DNA of 64,000 nucleotides, taken from positions 1-64,000 of the forward strand of contig JAUCBJ010008647.1 in NCBI GenBank assembly GCA_032718475.1, written 5' to 3'. The notes under the pieces are model-generated. The model did not search any database and had not been told where the DNA came from. It worked only from the letters and a program-made list of their open reading frames with translations. The position numbers and the translations under genes were made by a program. The stretch's first letter is position 1, and each line of letters starts with the position of its first letter. This DNA is from Nemertoderma westbladi. Taxonomy: Eukaryota; Animalia; Xenacoelomorpha. This document shows, in pieces, positions 8,954-60,192 of this stretch.

Positions 8954-9283
8954 CTCTCCAGTATCACCATCTTCGGTCTCTGGCGGTTGAACTACCACAT
9001 CGTCATCTACATTCAATCCTCCATCCCCATGTCCCTTGGTTCGTATACACAAACACCGGGCCAAACAGCTGAATAGCAGCATCCGCAACCAGGACGGAAC
9101 CGGTTTGGCCGCGGGTCCCTGGTTCTGGATCACCATCACTATTATAGTTAGGATACAGGCGATAGTAAGGAGGGCGATAACGGTAAAGTAGTACCAGGCG
9201 ATATAGGGGATAATGAGACCATCACTGGGGACAGTTTCAGCAACAACGAGTTGGTAAACAATAACAGACAGAAGGACAGTCAC
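8954..9283 (-). CDS. Internal exon of a Cys-loop ligand-gated ion channel (nicotinic acetylcholine receptor-like, resembles alpha9/alpha10 type): M2, M2-M3 loop, M3 and start of the cytoplasmic loop
   Basis: VTVLLSVIVYQLVVAETVPSDGLIIPYIAWYY...LTIIVMVIQNQGPAAKPVPSWLRMLLFSCLARCLC follows the nAChR pattern (VTVLL..TVFQL.VAE.MP, P.I..YY, PVP.W.R). Acceptor TTACAG|GTG at 9284/9283, putative donor GAG|GTTGGT at 8954/8953; 330 bp, phase 0-0. Confidence 0.88.
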
Positions 9284-9517
9284 CTGTAATAATCGGTAAA
9301 CAATAACAAGCAGAAGGACAGTCACCTGTAATAATTGGTAAATAATAACAGACAGAAGGACAGTCACCTGTAATGATTAGTTAAGAATAACTTACAGAAG
9401 GACAGTCACCTGTAATAATTTGTAAACAATAACCTACAGAAGGACAGTCACCTGTAATAATTAGTAAACAATAACCGACAGAAGGACAGTCACCTGTAAT
9501 AATTAGTAAACAATAAC
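9251..9517. repeat. 42-bp satellite, proximal block overlapping the exon start
   Basis: About 6 units of GTCACCTGTAATAATTAGTAAACAATAACAGACAGAAGGACA, more diverged than the distal blocks. Confidence 0.95.
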
Positions 9518-9935
9518 TGTGAGCGGATTCAATTCCGCCTCACCAACCCCCATAAAGTGGGAAGTGGCGCCTTTAAGCAATATTGGGGATACGAGGTTAA
9601 TCCCCAATTAACCTCGTATCACACACCCAATAAACGGGGACAACAAACCCCGAAGGGCCACACAAAGGGAGGTCAGAGGTTAAACCTCCGGGAGAGGAAA
9701 GTGACAGTAGCGGGGGGGGGGGGGGGGGGGGAAACACTCCCACAGAGGTGGGAGCCGAGAATTAGGTTATTGGCCAATCAGAGCCAGGAAATGCATCCGC
9801 TAAGTAAATGAGGCCACAAGTACAGTAGGTAACCAATATATATTACCGATCAGTATTCTGTAGTTCAGTTATCTCAGTCACACAGGGCAGTACGGTGACA
9901 CTTTAACACCTTCACCGCCATCACCAATTATTGTG
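9518..9935 (+). mobile_element. Truncated LTR of the recurring BEL family (family A)
   Basis: Starts TGTGAGCGGATTCAATTCCGCCTCACCAACCCCCATAAAGTGGG, homologous to the LTRs at 46564 and 51297; 3' part missing. Confidence 0.85.
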
Positions 9936-10354
9936 TGTTACGCGGCAATCTGGGATCTACAGCTGGGCTAGTTACACCGCCTACGCCCCAAACTGCACAC
10001 ATAAAGGACAATGAAGACGCTGGAAGTGAAGTCACGTGGAATGCACCAGGGACCCACCAGAATAACACTCCCAACAACATAAAGCTCAGTCGACGAAGTC
10101 ATGTGGGATGGGGTTACGCAACATTCTGGGATCTTCAGCTGGACTAGTTACACCGCCTACGCCACAAAATCCACGCAACGGTCCCACCAGAATAACGCGA
10201 CTGAGAAACATAAAACCTCATCATTGAAGTCATGTGGATGCACCATGGACCCACCAGAATAACGGGATAGAGGGGGTGTTGCGCGGCAATCCGGGATCTA
10301 CAGCTGGACTAGTTACACCGCCTACGCCCTGAACTGCGCACGCAACGGACAACA
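9936..10354 (+). repeat. Three-copy degenerate repeat (about 170-bp period) with TRIM-like termini
   Basis: GGGATCT(A/T)CAGCTGG(G/A)CTAGTTACACCGCCTACGCC three times; last copy TGTTG...CAACA (10277-10354) is preceded by a purine tract. Confidence 0.6.
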
Positions 10355-10621
10355 TAACATACTACAATGGATACAATGAATTCCACTTCAAATCTTTACC
10401 ATTTCCAATAATCCAATGTCGTTGGTCCCGATGACCAAAATCAGGGTAAACAATACATAAACGACCCTGCGTCAGTCGAAACATCTGCAGGGTGACGCTG
10501 GACTCCACATAACACACGAGGAAACACAAATACCATTGCGTGGTTACAGTTGGTTCAAGGGGGTCCATTATCATTGTCGATAAATCACAGTTTAAGAGTT
10601 TGTCAACAGGATGAGAAGGGT

Positions 10622-13600
10622 TTAAATGGGTTTAGCATTGTCACCAATGTCTGCAGCAGGATTCTGAGTAGGGAACTTATCACCTCTCGTAGAGTCACCG
10701 CTGTCATTGCCTTCAAGAAGGCACAGCCTCTGGAAAGGGCGTTGGTAGTGGCCCTTTGCCGTTCGTATTGTCACAGTCCTCGCAAGTCCATCTTTGCTCG
10801 GGTGTATTGCCACGACTCCCGCCACAGGCCAGTGGACGCAGTCTTTGAGATCTTCTTTCACTAGCACCATGTCGCCAACCGCGACATTTCTATGGAGGGT
10901 TATGGATGGTTCTATGGATGGTCCAGAGGGTTATGAGGTACTCCTGGGCCCAGATTCTCCACCAATGCGCTGCCAACGCTTGGGCCTTCTTCCAATTGGT
11001 ATGTCTCGCGATATCGTTGGGATCCGGAAACATCGTCTCTGGAAGAATATGGGTCTTGGGTCTTCCCAGTAGGTGGTTAGGAGTGAGGGGCTCCAAATCT
11101 GTGGGGTCGTCGCGGATAGGGACGATGGGCCGGTTGTTCAGGGTAGCCGTGATCTCGCAGAACGTTGTGCGGAGGGTGTCATGGGTTACCCGGGTGTCTC
11201 CTAATGCATTGCGCATGGATCGTTTTACTAAGTCGATGAGCTTCTCCCATAACCCGCTCGTATGTGGTGCTAAGGGTGTTTGGAAGTGCCACTGTATATG
11301 GTGGTCCCTCCAGACTTGGGATGCGGTGTCCTCAGTAAACCAGCCCTCAATCGCCTCTCTAAGTTCTCTTTCTCTTCCCACGAAGTTTGTACCATTATCG
11401 GAGTACATATGACGACATGTCCCATTGTTCGCCACGAACCGACGCAGGGCGTTGATGAATGCGTGTTGCGTAAGGTTCACCACGATGTCTAGGTAGATTG
11501 CCCTAGACCTAAGGCAGGTAAAGATGGCTCCCCAGCATTTGATATTGTATCATCGCTCGATGACCGTGAATGGTCCGAAACAGTCTACTCCGGTTACATA
11601 GAACGGTGGGGAATCGGACTGTAGACGTGTGGCTGGTAAGCCACACTTCAGTTAACACTTTCTGGATCAGTGGCTGGATGAGGGTGATCCAATATCTTTG
11701 TCGTATATTAGCTATAATCCAGTTCTGTCCCGCGTGGTGGTTTTCCTCATGACACTGTTGGATTAATAGCTTGGCTAGTGTCGACGTTCTGGGCAGAAGC
11801 GCTGGGTATTTGACCTCGTATTCAACTGCGGCGTTTGCCATCCGGGTATTCAGTCGAATCAATCCGTCCTCTCCCATCATTGGTCTCAATTGATAGACTG
11901 GACTGTCCGGTTTTAAGGTCTTGCCCGCACTGAGTTGTTCCCACTCATCGGGGAAACTTTCTCTCTGGACATATCTAACAATACACTTCTCCGCGATAAT
12001 GAGTTCCTGTATACTTTGTTGAACTATCGGTTTGTTGTCTTTCCACCGTAGGAAGTTGCGAAGGGTTATGATGTGGTGGATGAGATGTCTCATTGATGAG
12101 TTTCGCTCGATCAATAGTTGTAAAGACGCCGCTGGTTGAGTGATCGTCGTGACGTTATAGTGCCTGCCCGAGTCCTTTGCAGGCTCGGTCAGACAACTAT
12201 AGATCTCCACTGTGGCGCTTCAATGGACTTTGCGGATTTCCTTGTCGTCTTTGGAGTATTTTCCGCTATCGAGTTCGGGATCGAATCGGGTACTCCAGGT
12301 TAATTGTGGCTGCTGTAGGAATTCCGGACCGGTGAGCCAGAGTTTACTTTTACCGAGTTGTTTTGGGATGGCGCCTCTGCTTGATAAGTCCGCTGGATTT
12401 TCTTTCCCATTTACATGGTGCCACTGTTCTCGGCCGGTGCATTGTTTTATCTCCGTGGCTCGGTTCACTACAAACGTGGTGTGACGCCGTGATGGTGAGT
12501 GGAGGTAGTAGAGAACGATACTCGAATCGACCCAGAAATGTTGAGATTCGATGGGGATTCGTATGTTCCGCATGACCATGCGGTTCTGTCTCACTGCCCA
12601 AACTGCGGCCTGTAGCTCAAGTCTCGGAATCGTCGCTACGAATTTCCCTGGATACTGTCTTAGCTTTAGAAAATAAGAAGCTCGTATCGCCGTTTCCATC
12701 TTGACTTAGTCTTCTTAAGAAAGTGACTACGCCAATTCCGGTATTCGAAGCATCCGAGAAGGTATGGAGCTGGAAGATATCCGTGGGTAGTTTATCGAGG
12801 AAGAACGGTCGAGGGATCCGCATAAGATGTAGGTGTTCGAGCTGTTCCGTCCACTTTCTCCATTTGACACTGAGGTGTGGGGGGAGTTCTTCATCCCATC
12901 CCAGTCCTTCTATCCACATTTCCTTAATCAAATTCATTCCAGCCAAGGTTACCAGAGATATGAAATTTAGTGGGTCGAATATTGCACTTTTTATGGACAA
13001 ACATCCCCTTTTCGTCATGGGCTTGGGTAGGGGGTTATATTTGAAGATGAATTCATCCAATTCTATGTCCCATTCAATGCCGAGTACACGGTGGTCCACA
13101 TCCTCGGAATACATTTTATTGTTTTCCAGTCGAATTTCCTCCGGAAACTTTTCCATAAGTTTTTTGTCGTGGGATCTGAACTTCACGAGTGGAAAACCTC
13201 CTTTCTTTAAACATTCCACCATCCCCATTGCTAGCTGATATGCCTCGTCGACATTATCGGCGCCGGCGCATCCGTCATCTACGTAGAAGCATCGTCGGAT
13301 GGTTTCTATGACGGTTGGAGGGAACTCGTTTTCGCACATAGTCACCGTTTTCTTCAGCATGTCACTACATGCTACCAGCGAGTCCTTAGCGCCGAAGATC
13401 CTGACAATCATGCGCATTACCTCTACATCCTTCAATGTGAGCTGACTTATCTCCTGTGGAGTTAATGTTTTATCCGTCCATAATATACGCAGACAGTCTG
13501 AGTCTCTTGGTAGCGTTCGGACCTGGTGAAACATCGCTTTGATGTCGCATGTGAATGCTATCCGGTTTTCCCTGAACCTGATCAACACGCCAATGAGTGT

Positions 13601-14335
13601 ACTGTATATGTTGGGCCCTGTATAAAGTTGGCTGTTCAGGGATTCGCCTTGATACATAGCGGCGGCATCATTGACTACTCGGATTTTACCACCCTTCCGG
13701 GCTTCTACCACATAGTGGGTTGGGAGATAATATGTTCTTTTACCCCCTTGCAGTTCATTCCGGGGTACCATTTCCGCTAATCCATCTTCTAGGTATCCTT
13801 TGATTACATTATTATATTTCTCCTTTATCTCGGGTTGTTCATTCAACCGGCGTAGGATCCCTTTAAGTCGCCTAAGGGCCATGTTGGCGTTATTCGCCAT
13901 TGGTTTATTTGGGTCTTTCCATAGCATGGGTGAACACCAATGTCCGTCTTTGAACGTGGCCTGATCAAGGATGTCAATACAATATTGATCCTCCTCGGAC
14001 GGGTTCTCGTCCTTTTCCACAAACTCTTGGGTCTCTAGATTAAAGTATTTGGTCATCCCCTGCTGGGTTTTCTCGGTCTCAAGGAACAAATCCTTGTCAA
14101 GGTCTGTAGCTGAACAATAACCCACGGAGGTTGCGTTATCTTTAATCTGACATTTAGGAAGGTATGTATAGGTGTCTGTAGTCTCTTCCTTGATGCCGCA
14201 GAGTGTCCATCCCATGATTGTTCGTTCAGCGTAAAAGCCGTCATCCTGCTTTATAGATCGGGCGACATCTCCGGTGGGTATGTGTAATTCCGGTGTGTCA
14301 AGTCCGATCAATAGGGTGATGCGGTTTACGTCCAA
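10622..14335 (-). pseudogene. pol: Disrupted pol (RT, RNase H, integrase) in five or more fragments
   Basis: RT: CDIKAMFHQV and FYVDDG. RNase H: HTFSDAS, TIPRLELQAA, WVDS, NPADLSSRG. Integrase: CHEENHHAG, YSDNGTNFVG, GLWEKL, PLTPNHLL, RPFQRLCLL. Confidence 0.92.
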
Positions 14336-14352
14336 CGGCGGGCACCTTAGGT

Positions 14353-17226
14353 CTACATCATCTCACGTCTACATTCTTCTACATCTAACTGTATGAGAGG
14401 GGCATATTCGGCTGATTGTCGGAACCGCACTCGGAGATCGGTGTGTACCAAGGCGTTCTTGATTGTTAGCTTAACCGTCTCGTAGCCCTTCATGACTCCT
14501 TCCATTTGGAGCTGCACCTCCCCGGATTCTACTTCTCTATGGTCGGTGATAGTTTGTATGGGCCATTTGCAAGGTTCATAGTCTAGGCCGAGTTGTTCGA
14601 GGAAATCCCGGTCGATGATGGTTCCGTCCGACCCATTATCAAGGAACGCGAGCGTTGTCAAGGATTTCCCGACCCCTTGAATTCTTACTGGGATTACTTT
14701 GGCGAAGACCATGTAACGGCGATTTATAAGGTTGACCGTGGCCGATATATTTGTCACTTGTGATACATCGGTGGAGGTCTTAAACGGGTTGGTTTCCCTC
14801 CGTTGAATCGTCCGGGTTCCTTTAGAAACGTGGTTCGTTTCTCCTCTTCGTTTGGCTTCAATCCGAAAGGGGAGGGTGGTGAAGTCAAAGTTCGCGGGGA
14901 TGTGGAGGAGTGTGTGATGACGTAGGTCATTACAGACCGCACAGCACGATATTTGGTCGCAATCCCGAACATAGTGACCTGTTCCAAGACACCGGAAGCA
15001 TCCTCGGTGTTTCATTATCGCCTCAAAGCGTGGGACGAGTTCGGCAAACTGGAACTTCCTGCAGAATTCCACCTTATGTTTCTCTCCGCAGAAGAGACAG
15101 AGAAGAGAGTTTGTGATGCCTTCCCTTTCGGGTGCCCAATTCGCAAGATAACACGCCCATTCCTCGGCTGATGTCGGTTCCTCGTAGTCTTCGTCGTCGG
15201 AATCCCTGGCCATGGTGATAGCCATCGTACTCACCGGAGGTGGACGGAATCTCGGTTTCTGAGTGGGTGTCTTACTCCTGGAGTTGCTCTCTATTCCGTC
15301 TAACTTGGCGAGACTTTGTTTCGAGAACATAGAGTCATTCATGGCTTCGGAGATATCGTCCAGGAATGCCGACATTTCGAGGAAACTGGGATCTCGATCT
15401 GGGTGTCTGCGCCGGAGATCTACGCATTTATACGCCCACTTACTTTGCAGCCATCCGGGGAACTTTCGGGCGATCTGTCGGAGGTTTAGAATGTTGTTTA
15501 CTTGTTCCTCCTTATTTAATGGTTTTAGAGTGTAGTAGGCATCCTTCATGGAATCTGAGAATTCCTGGATATTCTGTGGGTCCCCTAGGGATCCCGCGTC
15601 CTGTATCAGTTTCTCGAGAGTTTTATTAATTATAGTCCCGATATTTCCGTATCTTTTATCTAGAGTTTTCCATGCGTCATAGTATGCTTCATGAGCTCCT
15701 CCCTCAAAGCATGCGATAATTCTGCGTGGTTTGTCACCCTGGTATTGGGATAAATATACTAGTTTTTGTGCGTCGGCTATGTCCGTTGACCCAATCTGCG
15801 CGAAAAACCGTTTCTTGAATCTGAGGTAATCGACGGGGTCTCCTTCGAAGGTGCGGATCTCCATCTTGGGCATGGCCAGTCGGTTTTCCAATGCCCGGAT
15901 AATGCCAACGTCGTCTGAACCGGAATGACTAGGAGGGTTATAGTTATTGGCACTCTCTCCCATACACGATGTATCGACGATAGTTTTAATGATGACGCGG
16001 TTACGGATTTGTGGTGTGGATGTAAACGGGTTGTTGGATTGAGGGGTAGCGTCCCGTTCCGAGTCCTTTTCAGGCTCGTACTTGGGAACGCTCGGGACCG
16101 TGGGGTTGGCTGGGAAATAAGGTTCCTCATTCTTAAGCGTAACCGGTGGGGGGTGGAATACCAGTGCTTGTGCCGATAACGTAGACTGTATGGTAGGCGG
16201 GAGCTCGGGTTTCGGAGGTTTCGCCGCCGGTGGTGTAAATGACTTCTCTATTTCCGGTATCGGGATTGGTTCATAGTTCTGTTCTATACCCCTTTCCCAG
16301 TCCTCGTATAGTTGAATATCCCGTTCTATAAGTGCGGCTTCGTATTCTGCGAGTTTCGCAATATCCGCATTCTTTTTATGGATGAGAATCGCTTGGGCCT
16401 CGGCGTATTGTTTACGCATTTCTGCCTCCCATTTACGTTGTTCGGTCTCCTGTTTGGCCTCTCGTCTACATTGTTCAGCCTCCTGTTCGCGTTGTTCGGC
16501 CTGCCGTTCGGCCTCTTGTTTGGCCTCTCGTCTACATTGTTCAACCTCCTGTTCGCGTTGTTCGGCCTGCCGTTCGGCCTCTTGTCTATGCTGTTCGGCC
16601 TCCTTTTCGGCCTCTCGTTTTTGCATTTCGGCTGCTAATACATCTTGCTCGACTCGCAGTTGAACATACTCATCTTCCATCCAAGCTTTGAGGGCCAATG
16701 CCTTCTGTTCTCGTAGCTGATCTCGGAGTGGCTGACCCCCTTGAGAACTGCGTGCTGAACCGGACCTCTCGCTCCTAGCGCTGGAATGCTGGTTCCTAGA
16801 GGACCCCGTTCTCTTTCGATGAATTGCTGTCCTGGTGCTGGAGGTTCGCACTGATTCTGAGTCTGTTCTTTCCGCTCTCTTATAGTACTGTTCCTCGTAG
16901 CCTCTCACGAGGCTGAGGGTCCTCCGGTGTTGTTTGCGGAATTCATCTAGATGTACAAAATGTTCTTCTAGTCTGGGGTAGTTTACCTGATCGATGGCGG
17001 GGATGAGTTCTTGATACGCCTGTATCATCCTCTCATATCGTTGTAAGATACTTCGGATATTCTGAAGCTGAGTTTGTATCTCGTTGAGGGGGGTTTCAAC
17101 TCTCTTGAGTTGTTTCTCTATACGCTGATACACTCGAGTGACTCCGCCTTTGAGAGCACCTAGTCGACGGGTCATGTTCTTGACATTCGGTACCTCGTTG
17201 GCTTCCGAGTCTGTGTGGGTGTCCAT
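14353..17226 (-). CDS. gag: Gag-protease part of the family B polyprotein
   Basis: FEGDPVDYLRF core; knuckles CLFCGEKHKVEFC, CFRCLGTGHYVRDC, CAVCNDLRHHTLLH; aspartic protease AFLDNGSDGT. Confidence 0.9.
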   Translation of the reverse strand: MDTHTDSEANEVPNVKNMTRRLGALKGGVTRVYQRIEKQLKRVETPLNEIQTQLQNIRSILQRYERMIQAYQELIPAIDQVNYPRLEEHFVHLDEFRKQHRRTLSLVRGYEEQYYKRAERTDSESVRTSSTRTAIHRKRTGSSRNQHSSARSERSGSARSSQGGQPLRDQLREQKALALKAWMEDEYVQLRVEQDVLAAEMQKREAEKEAEQHRQEAERQAEQREQEVEQCRREAKQEAERQAEQREQEAEQCRREAKQETEQRKWEAEMRKQYAEAQAILIHKKNADIAKLAEYEAALIERDIQLYEDWERGIEQNYEPIPIPEIEKSFTPPAAKPPKPELPPTIQSTLSAQALVFHPPPVTLKNEEPYFPANPTVPSVPKYEPEKDSERDATPQSNNPFTSTPQIRNRVIIKTIVDTSCMGESANNYNPPSHSGSDDVGIIRALENRLAMPKMEIRTFEGDPVDYLRFKKRFFAQIGSTDIADAQKLVYLSQYQGDKPRRIIACFEGGAHEAYYDAWKTLDKRYGNIGTIINKTLEKLIQDAGSLGDPQNIQEFSDSMKDAYYTLKPLNKEEQVNNILNLRQIARKFPGWLQSKWAYKCVDLRRRHPDRDPSFLEMSAFLDDISEAMNDSMFSKQSLAKLDGIESNSRSKTPTQKPRFRPPPVSTMAITMARDSDDEDYEEPTSAEEWACYLANWAPEREGITNSLLCLFCGEKHKVEFCRKFQFAELVPRFEAIMKHRGCFRCLGTGHYVRDCDQISCCAVCNDLRHHTLLHIPANFDFTTLPFRIEAKRRGETNHVSKGTRTIQRRETNPFKTSTDVSQVTNISATVNLINRRYMVFAKVIPVRIQGVGKSLTTLAFLDNGSDGTIIDRDFLEQLGLDYEPCKWPIQTITDHREVESGEVQLQMEGVMKGYETVKLTIKNALVHTDLRVRFRQSAEYAPLIQLDVEECRREMM

Positions 17227-18049
17227 CTCGTCGGTGTCGTCATTCTAGCGCATCGTTGATAGCTAGATATGCGATGTCGTAAAATAGTTCTTCGTAGCTC
17301 TCGTACTCGGCTTGGACTACCCGAACGGTAATCCTGAATCGTCCAATGTTCGTTCCTTGTACTTCAACCTCGACGTGCCAGATTCCTGGCTCAACTTGGA
17401 TTATGTCAATAGGTGTGATCGATACTTCCATTCCCTGTTAACGACTCTCTATATGTGATCTGCCGACTACGAGTTTATTAGATCGAGTTTGTCTATTGAT
17501 TAAACCACGGCTTTGTCTTAACTCAAATACCAGAGTTTCCTCGTAGTGGGTGCTGGGTAAGCACGGAGAGAGTTTGAAGAGTATTGTAGGATTCCCAACT
17601 TCCACCAGTTGAAGTTGGCCGCATCTTATTCTCAATTTTGACAGCCCGTCAAAATTGATCCACCTATTCTCAATTTTGTTGCCGTTATTCCCGACACCAT
17701 GGGGGAAAACGCCGATGCTGGAGGCGGAACTTTTCAGACCACGGAATCCCGGCCAGTCACCGGATATTGATTGTGGAGAAGGAATACGTTCTTAAATGCA
17801 AGATTGCGGTTGAGGAAAAGTTTCATTGGTTGGATATACTATTTAATGTAACTTCCCTACAGTTGAACCTTGATTGAGAATAAGTTGGGCTTCCCCAAAT
17901 CAATATACACCAAATATTCACAATAATATAACACGACAATATAAATCCCTACAGTATATTATTTAATTACCCATTGTTCGCTCAGATTTTAGCCTAACTA
18001 ATGTTCCCCGATTTTCCCTCGGTCCTAGTCTTGGTGCCGTAGTGTCGGT

Positions 18050-18720
18050 GTTGGTCGACCCTGTTGCGTGTCCGTCCCACCCTTCCCGAACCCCGAAGGG
18101 ATCGGTCATCAGGAACCAGGATGGCTTGGCTAAGGGTCGGTCCAGTTGGTGGACCCTGTCGCGTATCCGTACCACCTCTCCCGAACCCCAAAGGGATCGG
18201 TCATTGGGAACCAGTACGGCTTGGCTAGGGGTTTGTCATGTCGGTGGACCCGTTCGCGTGTCTGTACCACCCCTCCCGAACCCCGAAGGGATCGATCATC
18301 GAGAACCAGTACGGCTTGGCTAGGGGTCCGTCGGTTCATCGCAGAGACCCATCCACCTAGGCTTTCCGAGTCCTTATTCAGGCTCGTAGTCACTTCGGTA
18401 GCCGAGAAACTGCTCCGAACAGTCGGTAGGCCAGTAGAGTCCAGTCCTTTGTCTTTCGACCCCGTTGCGTGTCCGTCCCACCCCTCCCGAACCCCGAAGG
18501 GATCGATCATCGAGAACCAGTACGGCTTGGCAAGGGGTCTGTCAGCCCGTTGTGAGCCCTAACGGTTGGTGGTTTTCCGAGTCCTTATTCAGGCTCGTAC
18601 TAACGCCGGTCGTGGAACCCACTCCAGGAAGGCAGTCCTCGTCGAACTCTTCCTCTGTTAGTCGGTCGACCCATTCGCGTGTCCGTACCACCCGACGGCT
18701 TGGCTAGGGGTCTGTCGTCG
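18050..18720 (-). repeat. 95-bp repeats (4 full, 1 partial) in the family B leader
   Basis: Copies at about 18057, 18152, 18247, 18458 and 18668. Confidence 0.85.
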
Positions 18721-18937
18721 TTTCCCGTCGCAAATCCCTGACACAAGCAGCAGACTTTCTGATGTCCTTTTCAGGCTCGTAATAACTGCTGTTGGCCAGG
18801 GACCGCTAAGGGCAGTCCTTGTCCTTTAGACCTAGCGAGTTACCAAATCCACCTCTACAGGCAGCAGGAAGTTGGCTAGGCCTAATAGTAGTCAGGTAAA
18901 CCTGAATACTGCTTAACTTTTCCTTCCCCCCCTGGCC

Positions 18938-18945
18938 CTTATATA
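18938..18945 (-). promoter_or_regulatory. TATA box of the family B LTR
   Basis: TATATAAG about 180 bp inside the element start, in a GC-rich context. Confidence 0.5.
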
Positions 18946-19124
18946 CATGAAATGAGTCCCGTACCCCGTAAGTCGCCCCAATGTTCGCCCATAAATCGCC
19001 CCCAGTCCATCGAGTGTGCCCAAATCCCATGTTCCCGCACCCAGTAGTGATATCGGAATAATCATTTTAAATAAATCCAAAAAATATTCAACTCGCGTTA
19101 GGAAAAGTTGAAATTCCGCGAACA

Positions 19125-20637
19125 TTAGTAATAATTAGTAAACAATAACAGACAGAAGGACAGTCACCTGTAATAATTAGTAAACAATAACCTATAATTA
19201 GTAAACAATAACCGATAGAAGGACAGTCACCTGTAATATTTAGTAAACAATAACCTATAATTAGTAAACAATAACCTACAGAAGGACAGTCACCTGTAAT
19301 AATTAGTAACCAATAACCTATAATTAGTAAACAATAACCGATAGAAGGACAGTCACCTGTAATATTTAGTAAACAAAAACCTATAATTAGTAAACAATAA
19401 CCGATAGAAGGACAGTCACCTGTAATAATTAGTAAACAATAACCTATAGAAGGACAGTCACCTGTAATAATTAGTACACAATAACAGACAGAAGGACAGT
19501 CACCTGTAATAATTAGTAAACAATAACCTATAATTAGTAAACAATAACCGATAGAAGGACAGTCACCTGTAATATTTAGTAAACAATAACCTATAATTAG
19601 TAAACAATAACCTACAGAAGGACAGTCAACTGTAATAATTAGTAAACAATAACCTATAATTAGTAAACAATAACCGATAGAAGGACAGTCACCTGTAATA
19701 TTTAGTAAACAAAAACCTATAATTAGTAAACAATAACAGACAGAAGGACAGTCACCTGTAATAAGTACTAAACAATAACCTATAATTAGTAAACAATAAC
19801 CTACAGAAGGACAGTCACCTGTAATAATTAGTAAACAATAACCTACAGAAGGACAGTCACCTGTAATAATTAGTAAACAATAACCTACAGAAGGCACGTC
19901 ACCTGTAATAATTAGTAAACAATAACCTACAGAAGGACAGTCACCTGTAATAATTAGTAAACAATAACCTACAGAAGGATAGTCACCTGTAATATTTTGT
20001 AAACAATAACCTATAATTAGTAAACAATAACCTACAGAAGGACAGTCACCTGTAATAATTAGTAAACAATAACCTACAGAAGGAGAGTCCCCTGTAATAA
20101 TTTGTAAACAATAACCTACAGAAGGACAGTCACCTGTACTAATTAGTAAACAATAACAGACAGAAGGACAGTCACCTGTAATAATTAGTAAACAATAACC
20201 TATAATTAGTAAACAATAACAGACAGAAAGACAGTCACCTGTAATAATTAGTAAACAATAACCTACAGAAGTACAGTCACCTGTAATAATTAGTAAATAA
20301 TAACAGACAGAAAGACAGTCACCTGTAATAATTAGTAAACAATAACAGACAGAAGGACGTCACCTGTAATAATTAGTAAACAATAACAGACAGAAGGACA
20401 GTCACCTGTAATAATTAGTAAATAATAACAGACAGAAGGACAGTCACCTGTAATAATTAGTAAACAATAACAGACTGAAGGACAGTCACCTGTAATAATT
20501 AGTAAACAATAACAGACAGAAAGACAGTCACCTGTAATAATTAGTAAACAATAACCTACAGAAGTACAGTCACCTGTAATAATTAGCAAATAATAACAGA
20601 CAGAAAGACAGTCACCTGTAATAATTAGTAAACAATA
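19125..20637. repeat. 42-bp satellite block with 21-bp half units
   Basis: Same unit; half unit ACCTATAATTAGTAAACAATA. Confidence 0.97.
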
Positions 20638-37074: not shown

Positions 37075-37113
37075 GTCTTAGAATTCCAGCCAGCTACCGA
37101 TCTAAAGTAAAAG

Positions 37114-41900: not shown

Positions 41901-44900
41901 GTAAACAATAACAGACAGAAGGACAGTCACCTGTAATAATTAGTAAACAATAACAGACTGAAGGACAGTCACCTGTAATAATTAGTAAACAATAACAGAC
42001 AGAAGGACAGTCACCTGTAATAATTAGTAAATAATAACAGACAGAAAGACAGTCACCTGTAATAATTAGTAAACAATAACAGACAGAAGGACAGTCACCT
42101 GTAATAATTAGTAAACAATAACAGACAGAAGGACAGTCACCTGTAATAATTAGTAAACAATAACAGACAGAAGGACAGTCACCTGTAATAATTAGTAAAC
42201 AATAACAGACAGAAGGACAGTCACCTGTAATAATTAGTAAATAATAACAGACAGAAAGACAGTCACCTGTAATAATTAGTAAATAATAACCTATAATTAG
42301 TAAACAATAACAGACAGAAGGACAGTCACCTGTAATAATTAGTAAATAATAACAGACAGAAGGACAGTCACCTGTAATAATTAGTAAACAATAACCTACA
42401 GAAGTACAGTCACCTCGCCTGTAATAATTAGTAAACAATAACAGACAGAAGGACAGTCACCTGTAATAATTAGTAAATAATAACAGACAGAAAGACAGTC
42501 CCTGTAATAATTAGTAAACAATAACAGATAGAAGGACAGTCACCTGTAATAATTAGTAAACAATAACAGACAGAAGGACAGTCACCTGTAATAATTAGTA
42601 AATAATAACTGACAGAAAGACAGTCACCTGTAATAATTAGTAAACAATAACAGATAGAGGGACAGTCACCTGTAATAATTAGTAAACAATAACAGACAGA
42701 AGGACAGTCACCTGTAATAATTAGTAAATAATAACTGACAGAAAGACAGTCACCTGTAATAATTAGTAAACAATAACAGATAGAGGGACAGTCACCTGTA
42801 ATAATTAGTAAACAATAACAGACAGAAGGACAGTCACCTGTAATAATTAGTAAACAATAACAGACAGAAGGACAGTCACCTGTAATAATTAGTAAACAAT
42901 AACCTACAGAAGTACAGTCACCTCGCCTGTAATAATTAGTAAACAATAACAGACAGAAGGACAGTCACCTGTAATAATTAGTAAATAATAACAGACAGAA
43001 AGACAGTCCCTGTAATAATTAGTAAACAATAACAGATAGAAGGACAGTCACCTGTAATAATTAGTAAACAATAACAGATAGAAGGACAGTCACCTGTAAT
43101 AATTAGTAAATAATAACAGATAGAAGGACAGTCACCTGTAATAATTAGTAAATAATAACAGACAGAAGGACAGTCACCTGTAATAATTAGTAAACAATAA
43201 CAGACAGAAGGACAGTCACCTGTAATAATTAGTAAACAATAACAGACAGAAGGACAGTCACCTGTAATAATTAGTAAACAATAACAGACAGAAGGACAGT
43301 CACCTGTAATAATTAGTAAACAATAACAGACAGAAGGAAATAACAGACAGAAGGACAGTCACCTGTAATAATTAGTAAACAATAACAGACAGAAGGACAG
43401 TCACCTGTAATAATTAGTAAATAATAACAGACAGAAAGACAGTCACCTGTAATAATTAGTAAACAATAACAGACAGAAGGACAGTCACCTGTAATAATTA
43501 GTAAACAATAACAGACAGAAGGACAGTCACCTGTAATAATTAGTAAACAATAACAGACAGAAGGACAGTCACCTGTAATAATTAGTAAACAATAACAGAC
43601 AGAAGGACAGTCACCTGTAATAATTAGTAAACAATAACAGACAGAAGGACAGTCACCTGTAATAATTAGTAAACAATAACAGACAGAAGGACAGTCACCT
43701 GTAATAATTAGTAAACAATAACAGACAGAAGGACAGTCACCTGTAATAATTAGTAAATAATAGCAGACAGAAGGACAGTCACCTGTAATAATTAGTAAAC
43801 AATAACAGACAGAAGGACAGTCACCTGTAATAATTAGTAAACAATAACAGACAGAAGGACAGTCACCTGTAATAATTAGTAAATAATAACAGACAGAAAG
43901 ACAGTCACCTGTAATAATTAGTAAACAATAACAGACAGAAAGACAGTCACCTGTAATAATTAGTAAACAATAACAGACAGAATGACAGTCACCTGTAATA
44001 ATTAGTAAACAATAACAGACAGAAGGACAGTCACCTGTAATAATTAGTAAACAATAACCTACAGAAGTACAGTCACCTCGCCTGTACCAATTAGTAAACA
44101 ATAACAGACAGAAGGACAGTCACCTGTAATAATTAGTAAATAATAACAGACAGAAAGACAGTCACCTGTAATAATTAGTAAACAATAACAGATAGAAGGA
44201 CAGTCACCTGTAATAATTAGTAAACAATAACAGACAGAAGGACAGTCACCTGTAATAATTAGTAAACAATAACAGACAGAAGGACAGTCACCTGTAATAA
44301 TTAGTAAACAATAACAGACAGAAGGACAGTCACCTGTAATAATTAGTAAATAATAACAGACAGAAGGACAGTCACCTGTAATAATTAGTAAACAATAACC
44401 TACAGAAGTACAGTCACCTGTAATAATTAGTAAATAATAACAGACAGAAGGACAGTCACCTGTAATAATTAGTAAATAATAACAGACAGAAAGACAGTCA
44501 CCTGTAATAATTAGTAAATAATAACAGACAGAAAGACAGTCACCTGTAATAATTAGTAAATAATAACAGACAGAAAGACAGTCACCTGTAATAATTAGTA
44601 AATAATAACAGACAGAAAGACGGTCACCTGTAATAATTAGTAAACAATAACAGACAGAAGGACGTCACCTGTAATAATTAGTAAAAAATAACAGACAGAA
44701 GGACAGTCACCTGTAATAATTAGTAAATAATAACAGACAGAAGGACAGTCACCTGTAATAATTAGTAAATAATAACAGACAGAAAGACAGTCACCTGTAA
44801 TAATTAGTAAATAATAACAGACAGAAAGACAGTCACCTGTAATAATTAGTAAATAATAACAGACAGAAAGACAGTCACCTGTAATAATTAGTAAACAATA

Positions 44901-46563
44901 ACAGACAGAAGGACAGTCACCTGTAATAAATAGTAAACAATAACAGACAGAAGGACAGTCACCTGTAATAATTAGTAAACAATAACAGACAGGAGGACAG
45001 TCACCTGTAATAATTAGTAAACAATAACAGACAGAAGGACAGTCACCTGTAATAATTAGTAAACAATAACAGACTGAAGGACAGTCACCTGTAATAATTA
45101 GTAAACAATAACAGACAGAAGGACAGTCACCTGTAATAATTAGTAAATAATAACAGACAGAAAGACAGTCACCTGTAATAATTAGTAAACAATAACAGAC
45201 AGAAGGACAGTCACCTGTAATAATTAGTAAACAATAACAGACAGAAGGACAGTCACCTGTAATAATTAGTAAACAATAACAGACAGAAGGACAGTCACCT
45301 GTAATAATTAGTAAACAATAACAGACAGAAGGACAGTCACCTGTAATAATTAGTAAATAATAACAGACAGAAAGACAGTCACCTGTAATAATTAGTAAAT
45401 AATAACCTATAATTAGTAAACAATAACAGACAGAAGGACAGTCACCTGTAATAATTAGTAAATAATAACAGACAGAAGGACAGTCACCTGTAATAATTAG
45501 TAAACAATAACCTACAGAAGTACAGTCACCTCGCCTGTAATAATTAGTAAACAATAACAGACAGAAGGACAGTCACCTGTAATAATTAGTAAATAATAAC
45601 AGACAGAAAGACAGTCCCTGTAATAATTAGTAAACAATAACAGATAGAAGGACAGTCACCTGTAATAATTAGTAAACAATAACAGACAGAAGGACAGTCA
45701 CCTGTAATAATTAGTAAATAATAACTGACAGAAAGACAGTCACCTGTAATAATTAGTAAACAATAACAGATAGAGGGACAGTCACCTGTAATAATTAGTA
45801 AACAATAACAGACAGAAGGACAGTCACCTGTAATAATTAGTAAATAATAACTGACAGAAAGACAGTCACCTGTAATAATTAGTAAACAATAACAGATAGA
45901 GGGACAGTCACCTGTAATAATTAGTAAACAATAACAGACAGAAGGACAGTCACCTGTAATAATTAGTAAACAATAACAGACAGAAGGACAGTCACCTGTA
46001 ATAATTAGTAAACAATAACCTACAGAAGTACAGTCACCTCGCCTGTAATAATTAGTAAACAATAACAGACAGAAGGACAGTCACCTGTAATAATTAGTAA
46101 ATAATAACAGACAGAAAGACAGTCCCTGTAATAATTAGTAAACAATAACAGATAGAAGGACAGTCACCTGTAATAATTAGTAAACAATAACAGATAGAAG
46201 GACAGTCACCTGTAATAATTAGTAAATAATAACAGATAGAAGGACAGTCACCTGTAATAATTAGTAAACAACAACAGACAGAAGGACAGTCACCTGTAAT
46301 AATTAGTAAATAATAACAGACAGAAAGACAGTCACCTGTAATAATTAGTAAACAATAACAGACAGAAGGACAGTCACCTGTAATAATTAGTAAATAATAA
46401 CGTACAGAAGGACAGTCACCTGTAATAATTAGTAAATAATAATAGACAGAAGGACAGTCACCTGTAATAATTAGTAAACAATAACCTATAATTAGTAAAC
46501 AATAACAGACAGAAAGACAGTCTCCTGTAATAATTAGTAAACAATAACAGACAGAAGGACAGT
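38965..46563. repeat. 42-bp satellite block (about 7.6 kb) containing a 3116-bp tandem duplication
   Basis: Diagnostic variants and ORF-track hits recur at a constant offset of 3116 bp. Confidence 0.98.
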
Positions 46564-47091
46564 TGTGAGTGTATTCAATTCTGCCTCACCAACCCCCATA
46601 AAGTGGGCCAGCGAGACCCTTAAGCAATATTGGGAGCACGAGGTTGATTACCAATCAACCTTGTATCACCCCAATAAGTGGGGCAACAATAGGCCCCAAG
46701 AGGACACACACACAATGGGGGTCAGAGGTTACACCTCCGGGAGGGAGAGAGAGACAGCAGCGGGGGGAAGTACACCCAGGGAGATGGGAAGGTGACAAGT
46801 GAGTTATTAGCCAATGGGGGGAAGGCATCGGCTGAGTAGTGTAATGCGGCCAACCGGTGCAATATATTACCATGTCGGTGTATCATTCATTCACTTGTAG
46901 TAAGTCAGTTAGTTAGGACGGTACCGGAACTCTAATTACTGTGACGGGATCCACGGAGGATCCCGGTTTATCCGGTTTCTAATCTACGCGTCCCCGCCGT
47001 GTGTGTGAAAGGTAGAAAGAGTTATTGATCGGTGTATATAGTTCCAAAGGTATAATAGTATATGATAATGGTTGTTATAATATAAGTGTAC

Positions 47092-49877
47092 CGGCAGACT
47101 GCAGGACATACTGTAGGCCTTACTGCACATACTATTATAGGCCATGCTGGGAGAGATAGAGTAGGCGATAGGGTAGTGCGAACGACGGGATTAAACCCGG
47201 AAGTCGCGGAGTACATACCGGTAGGTAGGCAAGAAGTGGGTAGGCCTATATCGGTACAGCAGCATGACTATAATACACAGGGACATAACATATATCCAGG
47301 GAAGGGGAGAGTTATTGCTGATAGATGTATGGGCCCCAATATATTAACATCAACCCCAGTACCAAACATTCCGGTGGGGGGGGGGGGGGGGGGACAGGGT
47401 GACATTCCCCCATTCCAATATCAACAATATACTCGAACAGCAACGAGAACACCTAACCCCCTGGACGAGAACAGGTCTTGCGACACGGAAATATGGAGGG
47501 GGCCGTTACCCCCAATGATATATCCGACGCAACAAGTTAGATCAACAGCAGATAGGACGAACGGATCGCACCCAACGGCAGAATCTGTACAGCATCCATC
47601 GAACCCATTGGAAGCACAGGCGATGGGAATGGCGACGCTAATCGATGCATTAAAGACCAGGATCGAGTTACCACCAGTCGAGCCATTTAAATTCGATGGA
47701 AGTAGGCCGGAAGAATACCTGCAGTTTCGGCGCATGTACAGTAACGAGATATTAAGTAAGAACTTGATGCAGGTGGAGTGCCTAAAATATCTACAGGTGT
47801 ATACAGGAGGCCCAGCATACGACATCGTGAGGCAGTACCAGAGCATCGAGGGCGGCTTCACGACAGCATGGCGGGCGCTAGACAGGGAATACGGACACCC
47901 GGCCAAGATCATCCGGCAAACCCTGAGAGGTATAACATCGGGTGGCCTACAGGACAACCCCGTTAGCATAAAGACCTTTGCGAACAAGGTCGAGAAGGCG
48001 TTAATCGTGTTAAAGACGCTAGACGCGCCATACGAACTCAACGCATCTAATAACATCACCACAATAGCGCAGGCACTGCCGATCTGGCTGCGGAGCAAGT
48101 GGAGGAAGATCGCCTTCTCCACTCGAGAGAAGAAAGGTGCGGAGCCGGGGCTGGAGGAAATGTCAAACTTCCTCAACTACGAAGCCGAGTTGATAACAGA
48201 CCCAGTCTATAGTGAGGATAGTTTGGGGAAGGCGCCAAAGACCGAATACAACAGGCCTGGACCCGAACATAATCCGACAGATCCATTCTCGAGAGTAAGA
48301 CAGTCGCTACCACACGCGGCCACACAGGGGGCTACAAGCCCACAGTTAGCTGGGAGTAGGGCCACACCGTGGCAGGGACAGAAAGAAAATAACACCATAA
48401 ATAAACATAATCCCAATATACCCAGTAGGCCGAGTACAGATAACCAAAACACTAAATCGGTAGATATAAACCTACGCGCAATACGTGAAGGACTATATAG
48501 GGAACGCTATAATCCAGGATTCAAATTTCAATTACATCGGGACGGAACCCATAAGACCATGAGTTCTAAGCACTGGCAAGCGTTGCCCAAACAAGATCGT
48601 ATAGCCTACACAGACGCAAATGGACTATGTCATCGATGTGTGGTAGAAGGACACAGATCCGGAGAGTGTAGAGAAACAGCGACAGGAGATAACGAGACTG
48701 GAGGCCAAACAATGGCTACAAGCACGACAGTGGCAAGAAAGAAGAGAAAAGTACTACTCGGGGTAGTACTGGTGAAGATATCAGGAGAGGGCGGTCGATC
48801 AGTAACGACATTAATGCTGGTCGACAGCGGAGCAGCCTTCACGCTGGTGGAGAACTGGGTGGCCGAAGAGATAGGGCTAAAGACGAGGCCGAATAGAATG
48901 GCGGTAACCACCGTCTCAAGTAAGGATGAGGTCCTGGAGATGAGGACGGGACGGTGCAGGATATCAGCGATTGCACCGGGATGCAACTATGGGGCGACGA
49001 TCGACCCCATCCATGTGATAGAATCGATAAACATCAACGCCAGGCGACCAACCAACATCGAAGTCGAACAATATACAGTACATTCCTGGACGGTATCGAT
49101 TTCTCAATACCAGAGGTGGACGTTAGGAAGGTATCCATTATAGTAGGAATGGACTGCCCGACGGCCCACGAGAGAACAAAGACGGTCTTCGGCGAAGACA
49201 GGCAGCGGGACCCGACGGCGATCCTCACGCCGTTCGGATGGACGCTTAGCGGCCCAGTTAAAACCAAGATTCCATCCAGAGTGACGGAGACATCAGGGTG
49301 CATGTTACCAGGCACCGTAGACACGGAGGTTGAAGAGGAGAAACAGGAGATAGTAGAGCCAGACAGGGAAGTAACAGTAAGAGAGTGGGCGGAGGAGAAT
49401 GGATTTCCCAGCAAGTATCGGTATGGAGATGGAGAGGAGTGGACGGCGAGATGTCCGGAGGAGTGTCCGGTGGAGTGTCAGGAGGACAATAGTCCAGAGC
49501 AGTGTCTAGAGGAGTGTCCAGAGGAGTGTCCGGAAGAGACGCCGGTCCGGTTGAGAGGCATACCGACAAGGGGGAGCTCGAGTAGGAAGACAGGATGGAA
49601 AGGGATAGGACTATTGTTGTACCTTCTGTTTTGCCTGTTCTTTCACTTTCTATTCATTCTGCCGCCGGGAGATAACAAGGTGGGAGGTGGCATTTTGATG
49701 CCAGGAGACGAGAAAGTTAAGAAGGCGGTGGAGAGACCCGATTTCAGGGTGGCAGAAGAGAGAGAACCAATTCCTGGTGAGTTGGAATTGGTGGAGAGAG
49801 TGTGGCAAAGAATAAGAGGACGTATAAAGGAGGCAGTGGGAGAGTGCCTACTGGAAAAAGGGGCACTTCAGAGTTAA
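47092..49877 (+). pseudogene. gag: Gag-protease remnant, 5'-deleted, frameshift near 49075, unrelated C-terminal tail
   Basis: FKFDGSRPEEYLQF, CHRCVVEGHRSGEC, protease MLVDSGAAFT, AILTPFGWTLSGP; highly similar to 60.1-62.3 kb (minus). Confidence 0.85.
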
Positions 49878-50099
49878 GTCGTCCAATATTTTGGACTGAG
49901 GGGGGTGGGAATGAGGGCGAGACGCCCTTCCCACACAAATAATTATTTAATTAAAATAAATAACAAAATAATTAAATAATAAGATAAGTAGAAGGTAGAA
50001 AGTAATAGTTAGAAGAGATAGTAAGTAGTAGCAAGGAGTAGTAGAAAGTAGTAGTAGAGTGTTAGAAGGTGGCAGGGTAAGGGAGTGTGGTATATTAAC

Positions 50100-50900
50100 A
50101 TGCCACGAGTAGTAGCAGAGGGGTTGTGGGCACCGGAAGCGCCACGTAGAAAGTAGTAAGAGAGGGGTTGTGGGCACCGGAAGCGCCACATAGAAAGTAG
50201 TAAGAGAGGGGTTGTGGGCACCGTAAGTGCCACGTAGAAAGTAGTAAGAGAGGGGTTGTGGGCACCGGAAGCGCCATGTAGAAAGTGGTAGCAGAGAGTG
50301 GTTGTGGGCACCGCAAGCGCCACATAGATAGAGGTAGTAGAGTAGTAGAGAGGGCACATAGGGTGCCAGGTAGTAGAGTAGTAGAGAGGGCACATAGAGT
50401 GCCAGGTAGTAGAGTAGTAGAGAGGGCACATAGGGTGCCAGGTAGTAGAGTAGTAGAGATTGGCACATAGGGTGCCAGGTAGTAGAGTTAGAGGTAGTAG
50501 AGTAGTAAAGAGGGCACATAGGGTGCCAGGTAGTAGAGTAGTAGAGAGGGCACATAGGGTGCCAGGTAGTAGAGTAGTAGAGACGGGCACATAGGGTGCC
50601 AGATAGTAGAGTGGTTGTGGGCACCGCAAGCGCCATGTAGATGGAGGAAGTAGTAGTAGAGTGGTTGTGGGCACCGCAAGCGCCACGTAGATGGAGGTAG
50701 TAAGCAGAGTGGTTGTGGGCACCGCAAGCGCCACGTAGAAACTAGTAAGTAGAGTTAGAGTTAGTAGAGAGTTAGAGGGTTTTAGTTAGAGCTAGTAGAG
50801 TTAGAGTTAGTAGAGAGTTGGAGAGTTCTAGTAGAGTTAGGAGTTAGTTAGAGTTAGAGAAGTTAGATAGTTAGATAGTTAGCAAGTTAGACCTTAGATA
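50100..50900 (+). repeat. Mixed 44-bp and 36-bp tandem repeats plus purine-rich low complexity in the 3' UTR
   Basis: GGGTTGTGGGCACCGGAAGCGCCAC... at 44-bp period; GGCACATAGGGTGCCAGGTAGTAGAG... at 36-bp period. Confidence 0.85.
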
Positions 50901-51283
50901 AGGTAGATAGTATGATAGCACAGGGGTAGCATTAGAGATTAGGGCCTTAGGGAGTGGCAGAGAGTAGAGAGGAGTATGGAGAGGAGCTGCTGGCGAGAGG
51001 CAGAGCAGGCGAGTGCGATTCAGGTGTGGGGAGAGAGTAAGAGCGGAGTTAGAGCGGAGTTAGAGTGGTGAGAGTGTTGGGGAAACAAAAGTTGTGTGAA
51101 AGAAGCGCACGATCGGCCCGACACGAGACGCCAGAGGGTAGTGACATCATACCCATAGGGAGCAGCCTGGAAAGCCGACTCCAAGAAAAAATAACTCCAC
51201 CCCACACCCGATAATAGATCGAGTTCCAGCGGAATTGAAGCGCACTTAGAGGTTGATGCTATCTTCTCTCCGGGAAGATAGCA

Positions 51284-51296
51284 TGGGGGGGGGGAG
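51284..51296 (+). other. Polypurine tract
   Basis: G-run plus AG directly before the TG of the 3' LTR. Confidence 0.85.
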
Positions 51297-51873
51297 TGTG
51301 AGCGTATTAAATTCCGCCTCACCAACCCCCATAAAGTGGGCCAGCGAGACCCTTAAGCAATATTGGGAGCACGAGGTTGATTACCAATAAACCTTGTATC
51401 ACCCCAATAAGTGGGGCAACAATAGGCCCCAAGAGGACACACACACAATGGGGGTCAGAGGTTACACCTCCGGGAGGGAGAGAGAGACAGCAGCGGGGGG
51501 AAGTACACCCAGGGAGATGGGAAGGTGACAAGTGAGTTATTAGCCAATGGGGGGAAGGCATCGGCTGATTAGTGTAATGCGGCCAACCGGTGCAATATAT
51601 TACCATGTCGGTGTATCATTCATTCACTTGTAGTAAGTCAGTTAGTTAGGACGGTACCGGAACTCTAATTACCGTCACCGTCATTCCTGTCATCTGCCAA
51701 TAGTACATATATCATTTACCAGTACACTTATATTATAACAACCATTATCATATACTATTATACCTTTGGAACTATATACACCGATCAATAACTCTTTCTA
51801 CCTTTCACACACACGGCGGGGACGCGTAGATTAGAAACCGGATAAACCGGGATCCTCCGTGGATCCCGTCACA
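51297..51873 (+). repeat. 3' LTR, 577 bp
   Basis: TGTGAG...GTCACA; about 5 differences from the 5' copy over 46564-46939. Confidence 0.95.
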
Positions 51874-52038
51874 ACAGTCACCTGTAATAATTAGTAAACA
51901 ATAACCTATAATTAGTAAACAATAACAGACAGAAAGACAGTCTCCTGTAATAATTAGTAAACAATAACAGACAGGACAGTCACCTGTAATAATTAGTAAA
52001 CAATAACAGACAGAAGGACAGTCACCTGTAATAATTAG
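51874..52038. repeat. 42-bp satellite, short block between two elements
   Basis: About 4 units. Confidence 0.95.
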
Positions 52039-55511: not shown

Positions 55512-55979
55512 CCGTTGGGTGGTGCCTTACCAAGGCGCAGTAGGGTGAGTGATAGGTTAAGGTGGTTTATCTCAGTTCGATGGCCTATCTCCCTCTGGAT
55601 TACTAAGTTAATTAGCCTATTTCCACTGCTTGATTTCTGTAGCTACCAAATTGTACCTAAATTGTGAATTTTGTCAGTTACTTTTATTATGTTCCAGAAT
55701 TTTCTTGCTGCTGTTACCATAATTTGTCAATTTCTTAGCTCTATCCTATTTTGGTATTTTTAATCTAATTCAATCCTACCATTGTGCTGTTACTTACTAT
55801 TGCCTATGGATTATTCTATTTCATAATCCACATTCTGGCCTACTCTGTGGGCTTGTGCAGTACAACAGTATGCGTCGCGCGGCCTACACGATTTATCCAG
55901 CTGTACTCATATGCCCCCTCTCGCTACTAACTACTAACTAATGTCTATACTATATATATATATCCCTCTACCTCTTACT

Positions 55980-56500: not shown

Positions 56501-56625
56501 TTTCGCTTCTTATTATTTTTTATTTTATTTTTATTTTTATTGTGTAGGAAGGGCGTCTCGCCCTCAATCCCACCCCCCTCAGTCCAAAACTTGGACGACT
56601 AAACTACACTAAAAACCACACTAGT

Positions 56626-60189: not shown

Positions 60190-60192
60190 TCT

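What the first reader, a model, noticed from the sequence alone, without database searches (positions are those of the whole stretch)
9251..52038. A 24-kb satellite made from the splice acceptor and pore-helix codons of an ion-channel exon
Seen: on the minus strand the unit is TAA TTA TTA CAG|GTG ACT GTC CTT CTG TCT GTT ATT GTT TAC, i.e. 12 nt of intron plus codons VTVLLSVIVY. The last unit runs straight into the real nAChR-like exon. Roughly 550-600 units lie upstream in one orientation. Inference: the satellite arose by amplifying the intron-exon junction, expanded the intron to more than 54 kb and placed hundreds of near-identical decoy acceptors, almost all followed by an in-frame TAA, ahead of the true one. 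A conserved channel sequence sets the direction of origin as exon to satellite.
Basis: partly seen in the sequence, partly recalled or inferred. Interest (0 to 1): 0.85.

Follow-up and report, generated by a model that had tools for sequence, protein, structure and literature searches.

The report
Giant splice-site satellite in receptor gene
A 42-base piece spanning the start of one exon of an acetylcholine-receptor-like gene is repeated more than 500 times (24 kb) in front of that exon, yet a likely messenger-RNA sequence carries the exon only once; this is an unusually large case of a repeat type known from lancelets as a 'mirage', likely tolerated because a splice to a wrong copy would re-create a usable splice site.

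Summary
Real. 24,389 bp of a 42-bp repeat lie in five blocks, split by Bel/Pao retrotransposons, upstream of a 330-nt nAChR-like M2-M3 exon. 524 acceptor cores were counted, and 486 of 496 full units carry an in-frame stop. Correction: the unit is 33 nt of exon plus 9 nt of intron end; the TAA is the exon's CAA codon, mutated. A public contig matches the exon exactly and continues in frame on both sides, upstream with the conserved M1-M2 loop, so it is likely spliced mRNA with one M2. The upstream exon ends in the same five bases as the acceptor, so a splice to most decoys would rebuild a CAG|GTGACT donor: they look like ratchet points. The kind is known (amphioxus 'mirages', PMC3087553), and this scan found it before in other genomes, at up to about 105 copies. 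This one is about five times larger. Still open: whether the intron predates the repeat (about 65%) or was born from it (about 25%). The intron's 5' end lies outside the window.

The parts
8954..9283 (-). True exon, 330 nt, phase 0: M2 (from about its fifth residue), M2-M3 loop, M3 and start of the intracellular loop of an nAChR-like subunit
   Evidence: Pfam and PDB hits; 0 differences in contigs of 4 of 4 runs laid; open frame
9284..9292 (-). True 3' splice site, TTATTACAG; its last five bases equal the last five bases of the upstream exon in the likely mRNA
   Evidence: X4 contig matches to 9288 and then turns into M1-M2 loop codons; only the cut after 9284 gives a canonical AG (sequence)
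8948..8953 (-). Likely downstream donor GAG|GTTGGT (6 of 9 consensus matches; the alternative after 8950 has 3 of 9)
   Evidence: X4 contig leaves the window at 8950 and goes on in an open frame
9284..9519 (-). Block 1: five decoy units and a partial one; the two nearest are stop-free and would add 14 or 28 residues to M2 if used
19127..20638 (-). Block 2 of the satellite (1,512 bp; partly a copy of about 33.2 kb)
21675..36513 (-). Block 3 (14,839 bp; 42-mers mixed with 21-nt sub-units, higher-order repeats)
38964..46564 (-). Block 4 (7,601 bp; most homogeneous, holds a duplication at 3,116-bp offset)
51873..52040 (-). Block 5 (168 bp), cut at its far end by an LTR
9518..19126 (-). Bel/Pao LTR retrotransposon, broken, inserted in the array
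   Evidence: DUF1759, Peptidase_A17, rve; LTR likeness
20639..21674 (.). 1,036-bp insertion of unknown kind between blocks 2 and 3
36514..38963 (+). LTR plus a truncated ORF related to the element at the window's end
   Evidence: no Pfam hit
46564..51873 (+). Bel/Pao element with two LTRs 98.2% alike and a 5-bp target-site duplication; the array is in register across it
52041..64000 (-). Bel/Pao element running off the window; the array may resume beyond it

Best explanation
This is a giant 'mirage': a 42-bp piece covering the first 33 nt of the pore-helix exon and the 9 nt in front of it is repeated over 500 times, likely by tandem amplification of an intron end that already existed, and the gene likely still splices correctly because a splice to a wrong copy would rebuild a donor. 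Shown: the unit's make-up, its continuity with the exon, the later LTR insertion, 493 CAG|GT cores and the stops. Inferred: (1) duplication across the acceptor, then unequal exchange and homogenisation, with CAA to TAA fixed in the array's interior; (2) the upstream exon ends in CAG and most units start GTGACT, so joining to a decoy would give CAG|GTGACT again, which can be spliced onward, ratchet-fashion, until the true exon, defined by its own donor 330 nt on, is reached; (3) leftover units would bring a stop and be removed by nonsense-mediated decay. The array is likely tolerated clutter, not an adaptation.
For: Unit equals exon nt 1-33 at 32 positions plus an AT-rich end in CAG. Units beside the exon are more diverged (3.0 differences against 1.1-2.2 in the large blocks) and the two nearest keep CAA/CGA, the edge pattern described for mirages (PMC3087553). 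One 1,766-nt contig of run X4 matches 8950-9288 with 0 differences and goes on in frame at both ends: upstream PAESGEKMG, like homologues' M1-M2 loop; downstream an open frame; neither flank is in the window. Repeat-like contigs lie on the junction in X1, X2 and X3 (two studies), and their single-copy exon contig stops 30 nt into the unit, so the array is not peculiar to one assembly. The unit donor matches the U1 consensus at 8 of 9, better than the gene's next donor (6 of 9); 469 such donors lie in the array and 9 in the other 39,611 bp of that strand. A purely exonic origin needs at least 3 changes in 6 junction bases against 1 in the other 36 (clustering p 0.0014). Acceptor-donor pairs with a roughly 50-nt cryptic exon are the ratchet-point anatomy (PMC8605326).
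Against: The intron's 5' end was not seen, so 'intron first' is untested. Five shared bases at the two ends and a strong donor at the mRNA junction are what the intron-birth model predicts. X4 is labelled 'DNA?' by guess; that its contig is cDNA is my inference, only 30 nt were seen on each side, and that individual may lack the array. Contigs drop rare forms, so +14/+28-residue isoforms are not excluded. No splicing intermediate was observed. The final junction also carries the donor, so the true exon could be skipped and needs protection (inferred; the exon junction complex does this in mammals, PMC8605326). The true acceptor has no better branch motif than the decoys. The donor score is a plain match count against a recalled consensus.
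Confidence: 0.6

Rival explanations
1. The intron was born from the repeat (Rogers model). M1-M2-M3 was one exon; a rare Gln codon gave a CAG|GTGACT proto-splice site; a 42-nt in-frame duplication, with a 4-nt filler or later changes at its joint, supplied donor and acceptor; the new intron then grew into a satellite.
For: Unit length is 14 codons. Upstream exon and acceptor share TACAG. The junction is an 8-of-9 donor. Gln at this position occurs in 1 of 108 homologues matched by my pattern (42 of 150 unmatched and dropped). Precedents: ATP2A1 (PMC3265369), fission-yeast 24-bp repeats (as cited in PMC4974935), Drosophila (PMC2891723). The position is not one I recall for alpha7 (2 nt earlier) or alpha9 (five codons earlier); the paper read gave no positions in text.
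Against: At least 3 of 6 junction bases misfit for every breakpoint. None of 524 cores keeps the upstream exon's C before TACAG in an exon-like context; 464 read TAATTATTACAG. CAG at both ends is expected from splice consensus, which leaves only two extra shared bases. A 5-bp direct repeat also fits intron gain by insertion (PMC3443670). Acceptor mirages on existing introns seem common in marine invertebrates (unchecked notes).
Confidence: 0.25
2. Same origin as the best explanation, but one-step splicing: decoys are never used because only the true exon is defined (enhancers, downstream donor), or the heterochromatic array is passed over.
For: Mirages without any need for recursion splice normally (PMC3087553, PMC3902484). 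The human F7 VNTR pseudo-donors stay silent by position (PMC1557585 abstract). Other arrays noted by this scan are reported to splice correctly (unchecked).
Against: Each decoy has strong donors 0, 42 and 84 nt downstream, so it can be defined as a cryptic exon, and hundreds are transcribed before the true one (inference).
Confidence: 0.35
3. The array is inflated or misplaced by assembly, or this allele is dead and the spliced contig comes from an allele without the array.
For: 3,386 bp repeated at 3,116-bp offset with 12 mismatches. X4 is a different sample from those showing the repeat.
Against: Diverse unit variants, higher-order structure, and an LTR element with a clean target-site duplication inside the array. 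The exon is intact and identical in 4 of 4 runs, and repeat contigs occur in two studies.
Confidence: 0.1

Closest known systems
Amphioxus 'mirage' minisatellites (Adh3, globins BflGb6/BflGb9, troponin C, PGBD5; PMC3087553 and PMC3902484, passages read; Canestro 2002 not held)
   Same: Head-to-tail copies of an intron/exon boundary beside the true one, homogenised inside, diverged at the edges, mRNA apparently normal.
   Different: The passages read give 2-7 copies of 60-160 bp (Adh3 units 10-72 bp, copy number not seen); here at least 524 cores and 24.4 kb, invaded by LTR elements, with a donor directly behind nearly every acceptor.
Intron gain by tandem duplication of an AGGT site (Rogers; PMC3265369, PMC3443670, PMC2891723, PMC4974935)
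   Same: Intron sequence resembles the flanking exon; the junction is AG|GT; stop codons lie inside.
   Different: Known cases are small; here the intron's 5' end and the ancestral state are unseen and the junction bases fit imperfectly.
Recursive splicing at ratchet points / RS-exons (PMC8605326, introduction read)
   Same: Acceptor and donor side by side, a short cryptic exon with a stop and a second donor, in a long intron.
   Different: Known ratchet points are single conserved sites; here hundreds are made by repeat amplification, and their use is untested.
Human F7 intron 7 VNTR (PMC1557585, abstract read)
   Same: A minisatellite that copies a splice site; the extra sites stay silent.
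   Different: Donor side and few copies; selection there favours the first site, here the last must win.

Membership tests
Mirage minisatellite | Tandem unit spans an intron/exon boundary of the host gene | tested here: met
   33 nt exon + 9 nt ending in AG; junction placed by the X4 contig. Holds for today's gene structure whichever origin is right.
Mirage minisatellite | Array abuts the authentic boundary in the same orientation | tested here: met
Mirage minisatellite | Concerted evolution inside, edge units apart | tested here: met
   mean 4.6% from the modal unit; block 1 more diverged, keeps CAA/CGA
Mirage minisatellite | mRNA spliced normally | tested here: inconclusive
   one likely cDNA contig with a single M2; run type guessed, other individual, rare forms invisible
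Mirage minisatellite | Length varies between alleles | not testable with these tools
   contigs break in the repeat; no long reads
Intron gain by tandem duplication | AG|GT proto-splice site at the mRNA junction, shared by both intron ends | tested here: met
   CAG|GTGACT, 8 of 9; five shared bases
Intron gain by tandem duplication | Unit wholly explained by flanking exon sequence | tested here: inconclusive
   38 of 42 positions assignable; at least 3 of 6 junction bases misfit
Intron gain by tandem duplication | Intron absent in outgroups; intron starts with the duplicated sequence | not testable with these tools
   no genome held; M1 exon outside the window
Recursive (ratchet) splice site | Acceptor directly followed by a donor, second donor a short way on | tested here: met
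   493 of 524 cores CAG|GT; period 42
Recursive (ratchet) splice site | Intermediates in RNA (sawtooth, lariats) | not testable with these tools
   only contigs were available
Cys-loop receptor, nAChR-like | M2-M3 transmembrane region homologous to nAChR | tested here: met
   8 of the 10 hits looked up are named alpha7/9/10-like or hypothetical animal proteins, best identity 44% or less
Cys-loop receptor, nAChR-like | Ligand-binding domain with Cys-loop and vicinal cysteines | not testable with these tools
   those exons are outside the window

The most novel reading that the evidence does not exclude
The whole intron of more than 54 kb was created from coding sequence: a 14-codon duplication in the pore helix became an intron at a CAG|GT site, grew into a satellite of hundreds of self-regenerating splice sites, drew in retrotransposons, and is removed by stepwise ratcheting, so the repeat supplies its own route of excision.
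Probability: 0.2. Interest if true: 0.78.

Novelty: new member of a known kind. Interest (0 to 1): 0.46.

Why it matters
It is a natural test of 3' splice-site choice: over 500 near-identical acceptors are transcribed before the right one, and local sequence does not single it out. It links three things usually treated apart: satellite birth from a single-copy gene, intron growth and recursive splicing. If the intron was born from the repeat, it would be a very large, still legible case of intron gain. As it stands it is an extreme member of a described class; five paper searches (listings only) showed no mirage of this size.

Tried and rejected
No whole genome is held, so the M1 exon, the far end of the array and copies elsewhere could not be sought. 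Homologue search among longer proteins: 0 of 478 candidates scored; the profile-library search found 315, none close. No RNA holder was listed among public runs. X4 shows no cover on the repeat or on parts of the intron; not used as evidence. First idea that X4 held an ancestral allele with a plain intron: rejected once its flanks translated as receptor sequence; a retrocopy or an intronless allele is not formally excluded. Summed contig depth as copy number: rejected (two runs of one sample differ about tenfold). No contig joining M1 to a repeat unit was laid in X1 or X2, but none joining the repeat to the known LTR flanks was either, so this blank says nothing. An AT-AC intron cut 2 nt earlier: considered, but I saw no matching branch motif before the true acceptor (by eye, recalled consensus). 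The long Cys-rich frames in the array are a by-product of the 42-bp period; not pursued. The 33-bp array at 7422-8036 is not the next exon of the X4 contig. A tblastn hit at 14770-14982 (E 2.6e-4, one protein, inside a gag gene) was dismissed. Per-position conservation of AG and GT was not interpreted, because units are not independent. Canestro 2002 and Zhuo 2007 are not held. Atlas look-ups did not complete. Earlier-findings look-ups by place and by sequence were empty. No supplements were read; those of PMC3087553 hold mirage alignments that may bear on copy numbers.

Full report
Observation. Tandem Repeats Finder and two scripts show a 42-bp satellite in five blocks between 9251 and 52040, 24,389 bp in all and all in one orientation. 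524 acceptor cores were counted with up to two mismatches in ten bases, the true one included; 522 end in CAG and 493 read CAG|GT. 496 ungapped 42-mers differ from the modal unit by 4.6% on average, and 486 of them carry an in-frame stop. The blocks are separated by Bel/Pao retrotransposons and one unexplained 1-kb insert. One element has LTRs 98.2% alike and a 5-bp target-site duplication with the array in register on both sides, so it came after the array. The last block is cut by an LTR whose element runs off the window.

The exon. The last unit runs into a 330-nt open frame (9283 to 8954) that matches Pfam Neur_chan_memb and the M2-M3 region of nicotinic receptors. The best of 315 library hits are 44% identical or less; of ten looked up, most are named alpha7-, alpha9- or alpha10-like proteins of various animals. 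The M2 motif is conserved across these, which sets the direction as exon to satellite. A profile of 77 full-length homologues (of 150 fetched) found no other receptor exon among 4,129 six-frame peptides. If the gene is whole in cis, the intron exceeds 54.7 kb, of which the satellite is under half.

What the unit is made of. The modal unit equals exon bases 1-33 at 32 positions. The one change turns the exon's CAA into TAA, and the two units nearest the exon still have CAA or CGA. The non-exon part is therefore 9 nt, not 12. Those two units are stop-free: their acceptors would add 14 or 28 residues to M2, while the three further proximal acceptors hit a stop.

Public runs. Six runs were listed, four holding the stretch. 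The exon shows no difference in any of the four laid. X1, X2 and X3 (two samples, two studies) have many high-depth contigs on the repeat, and their single-copy exon contig ends 30 nt into the unit, as expected at a repeat. X4 gave one contig of 1,766 nt that matches 8950-9288 and continues unlike the window on both sides. The upstream 30 nt translate as PAESGEKMG, in frame with the exon and like the M1-M2 loop of homologues; the downstream 30 nt stay open in the same frame; neither occurs in the window with up to 8 mismatches. I infer spliced mRNA with a single M2. The run's type is only guessed as DNA, that individual's genotype is unknown, and contigs hide rare isoforms.

Mechanism. The contig shows that the upstream exon ends in the same five bases as the acceptor. 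Splicing it to any of 463 exact CAG|GTGACT units would rebuild that same site, which matches the donor consensus at 8 of 9, against 6 of 9 for the gene's next donor. 469 such sites lie in the array and 9 in the other 39,611 bp of the strand (consensus recalled). That is the anatomy of ratchet points with a short cryptic exon (PMC8605326, introduction). A wrong splice would thus be recoverable, and retained units would bring a stop. This is inference: no intermediate was seen, one-step exon definition is a close rival, and the true exon, which also starts with the donor, must be protected from skipping. Branch-like motifs do not favour the true acceptor.

Origin. Two histories fit. In the first, an existing acceptor junction was amplified. 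The AT-rich 9-mer is then simply the old intron end, and no changes are needed. In the second, a 14-codon duplication at a proto-splice site created the intron (PMC3265369 first quarter; PMC3443670 passages; PMC2891723 passages; PMC4974935 first fifth). For it: in-frame length, five shared bases, a strong junction donor, and a Gln found in 1 of 108 matched homologues (42 of 150 not matched). Against it: at least 3 of 6 junction bases misfit at every breakpoint, against 1 change in the other 36 (p 0.0014 for such clustering by point change; a filler at the joint would remove this objection). The nAChR papers read gave no intron positions in text (PMC6354393 passages and section 6); PMC6896357 passages report novel introns in expanded molluscan receptors. 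I put the first history at about 65% and the second at about 25%; these are judgements, not computed values.

Known kind. Tandem copies of intron/exon boundaries are described in amphioxus as mirages, with concerted evolution, diverged edges and normal mRNA (PMC3087553 passages; PMC3902484 passages). The human F7 VNTR is a donor-side parallel (abstract). This scan has noted the kind in other genomes, up to about 105 copies and 6.8 kb among eight shown (unchecked notes). I had reached 'mirage' from the paper before that call, but the notes raised my odds for the first history. Five searches listed no case with hundreds of copies; two key papers could not be read.

Verdict. A real and very large member of a known class, with a testable twist: its units are acceptor-donor pairs that the upstream exon would regenerate. 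Interest 0.46. The reading that the intron was born from the repeat and is removed by ratcheting has probability about 0.2 and would deserve about 0.78.

Noticed in passing
window 7422-8036: A second array, 33 bp x 18.6 and 97% uniform. On the + strand it starts right after TTTTACAG and each unit holds GTAAGT, so it may be a donor-side mirage of a gene on the other strand. Could be chance.
   Followed up: partly
window 54207-55526 and 53338-53946 (-): Two extra ORFs (439 and 202 aa) downstream of pol inside a Bel/Pao element; no Pfam hit for either, no PDB sequence hit for the longer, Atlas not answered.
   Followed up: partly
window 9518, 36514, 46564, 52041: Four related LTR elements (LTRs 68-80% alike) sit in the array at different positions within the unit: accumulation without a fixed target.
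   Followed up: partly
window 39893-43278 and 43009-46394: 3,386 bp repeated at 3,116-bp offset with 12 mismatches: a recent higher-order duplication or an assembly artefact.
   Followed up: partly
window 8950-8953: The downstream intron also sits at an AG|GT junction, with four bases shared between intron start and next exon; high-copy small elements follow at about 8350-8940.
   Followed up: partly
window 46941-47094: An inverted copy (99.4%) of 51719-51872: one LTR of this element has its inner part flipped.
   Followed up: no
window 9284-9286 and the codon before the exon: The residue just before the exon's first Val is Gln in the likely mRNA; 1 of 108 matched homologues has Gln there, 48 have Gly. 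An unusual M2 residue.
   Followed up: partly
window 738-3981 (-): Another Bel/Pao gag (DUF1759) in the downstream intron, running towards the window's start.
   Followed up: no
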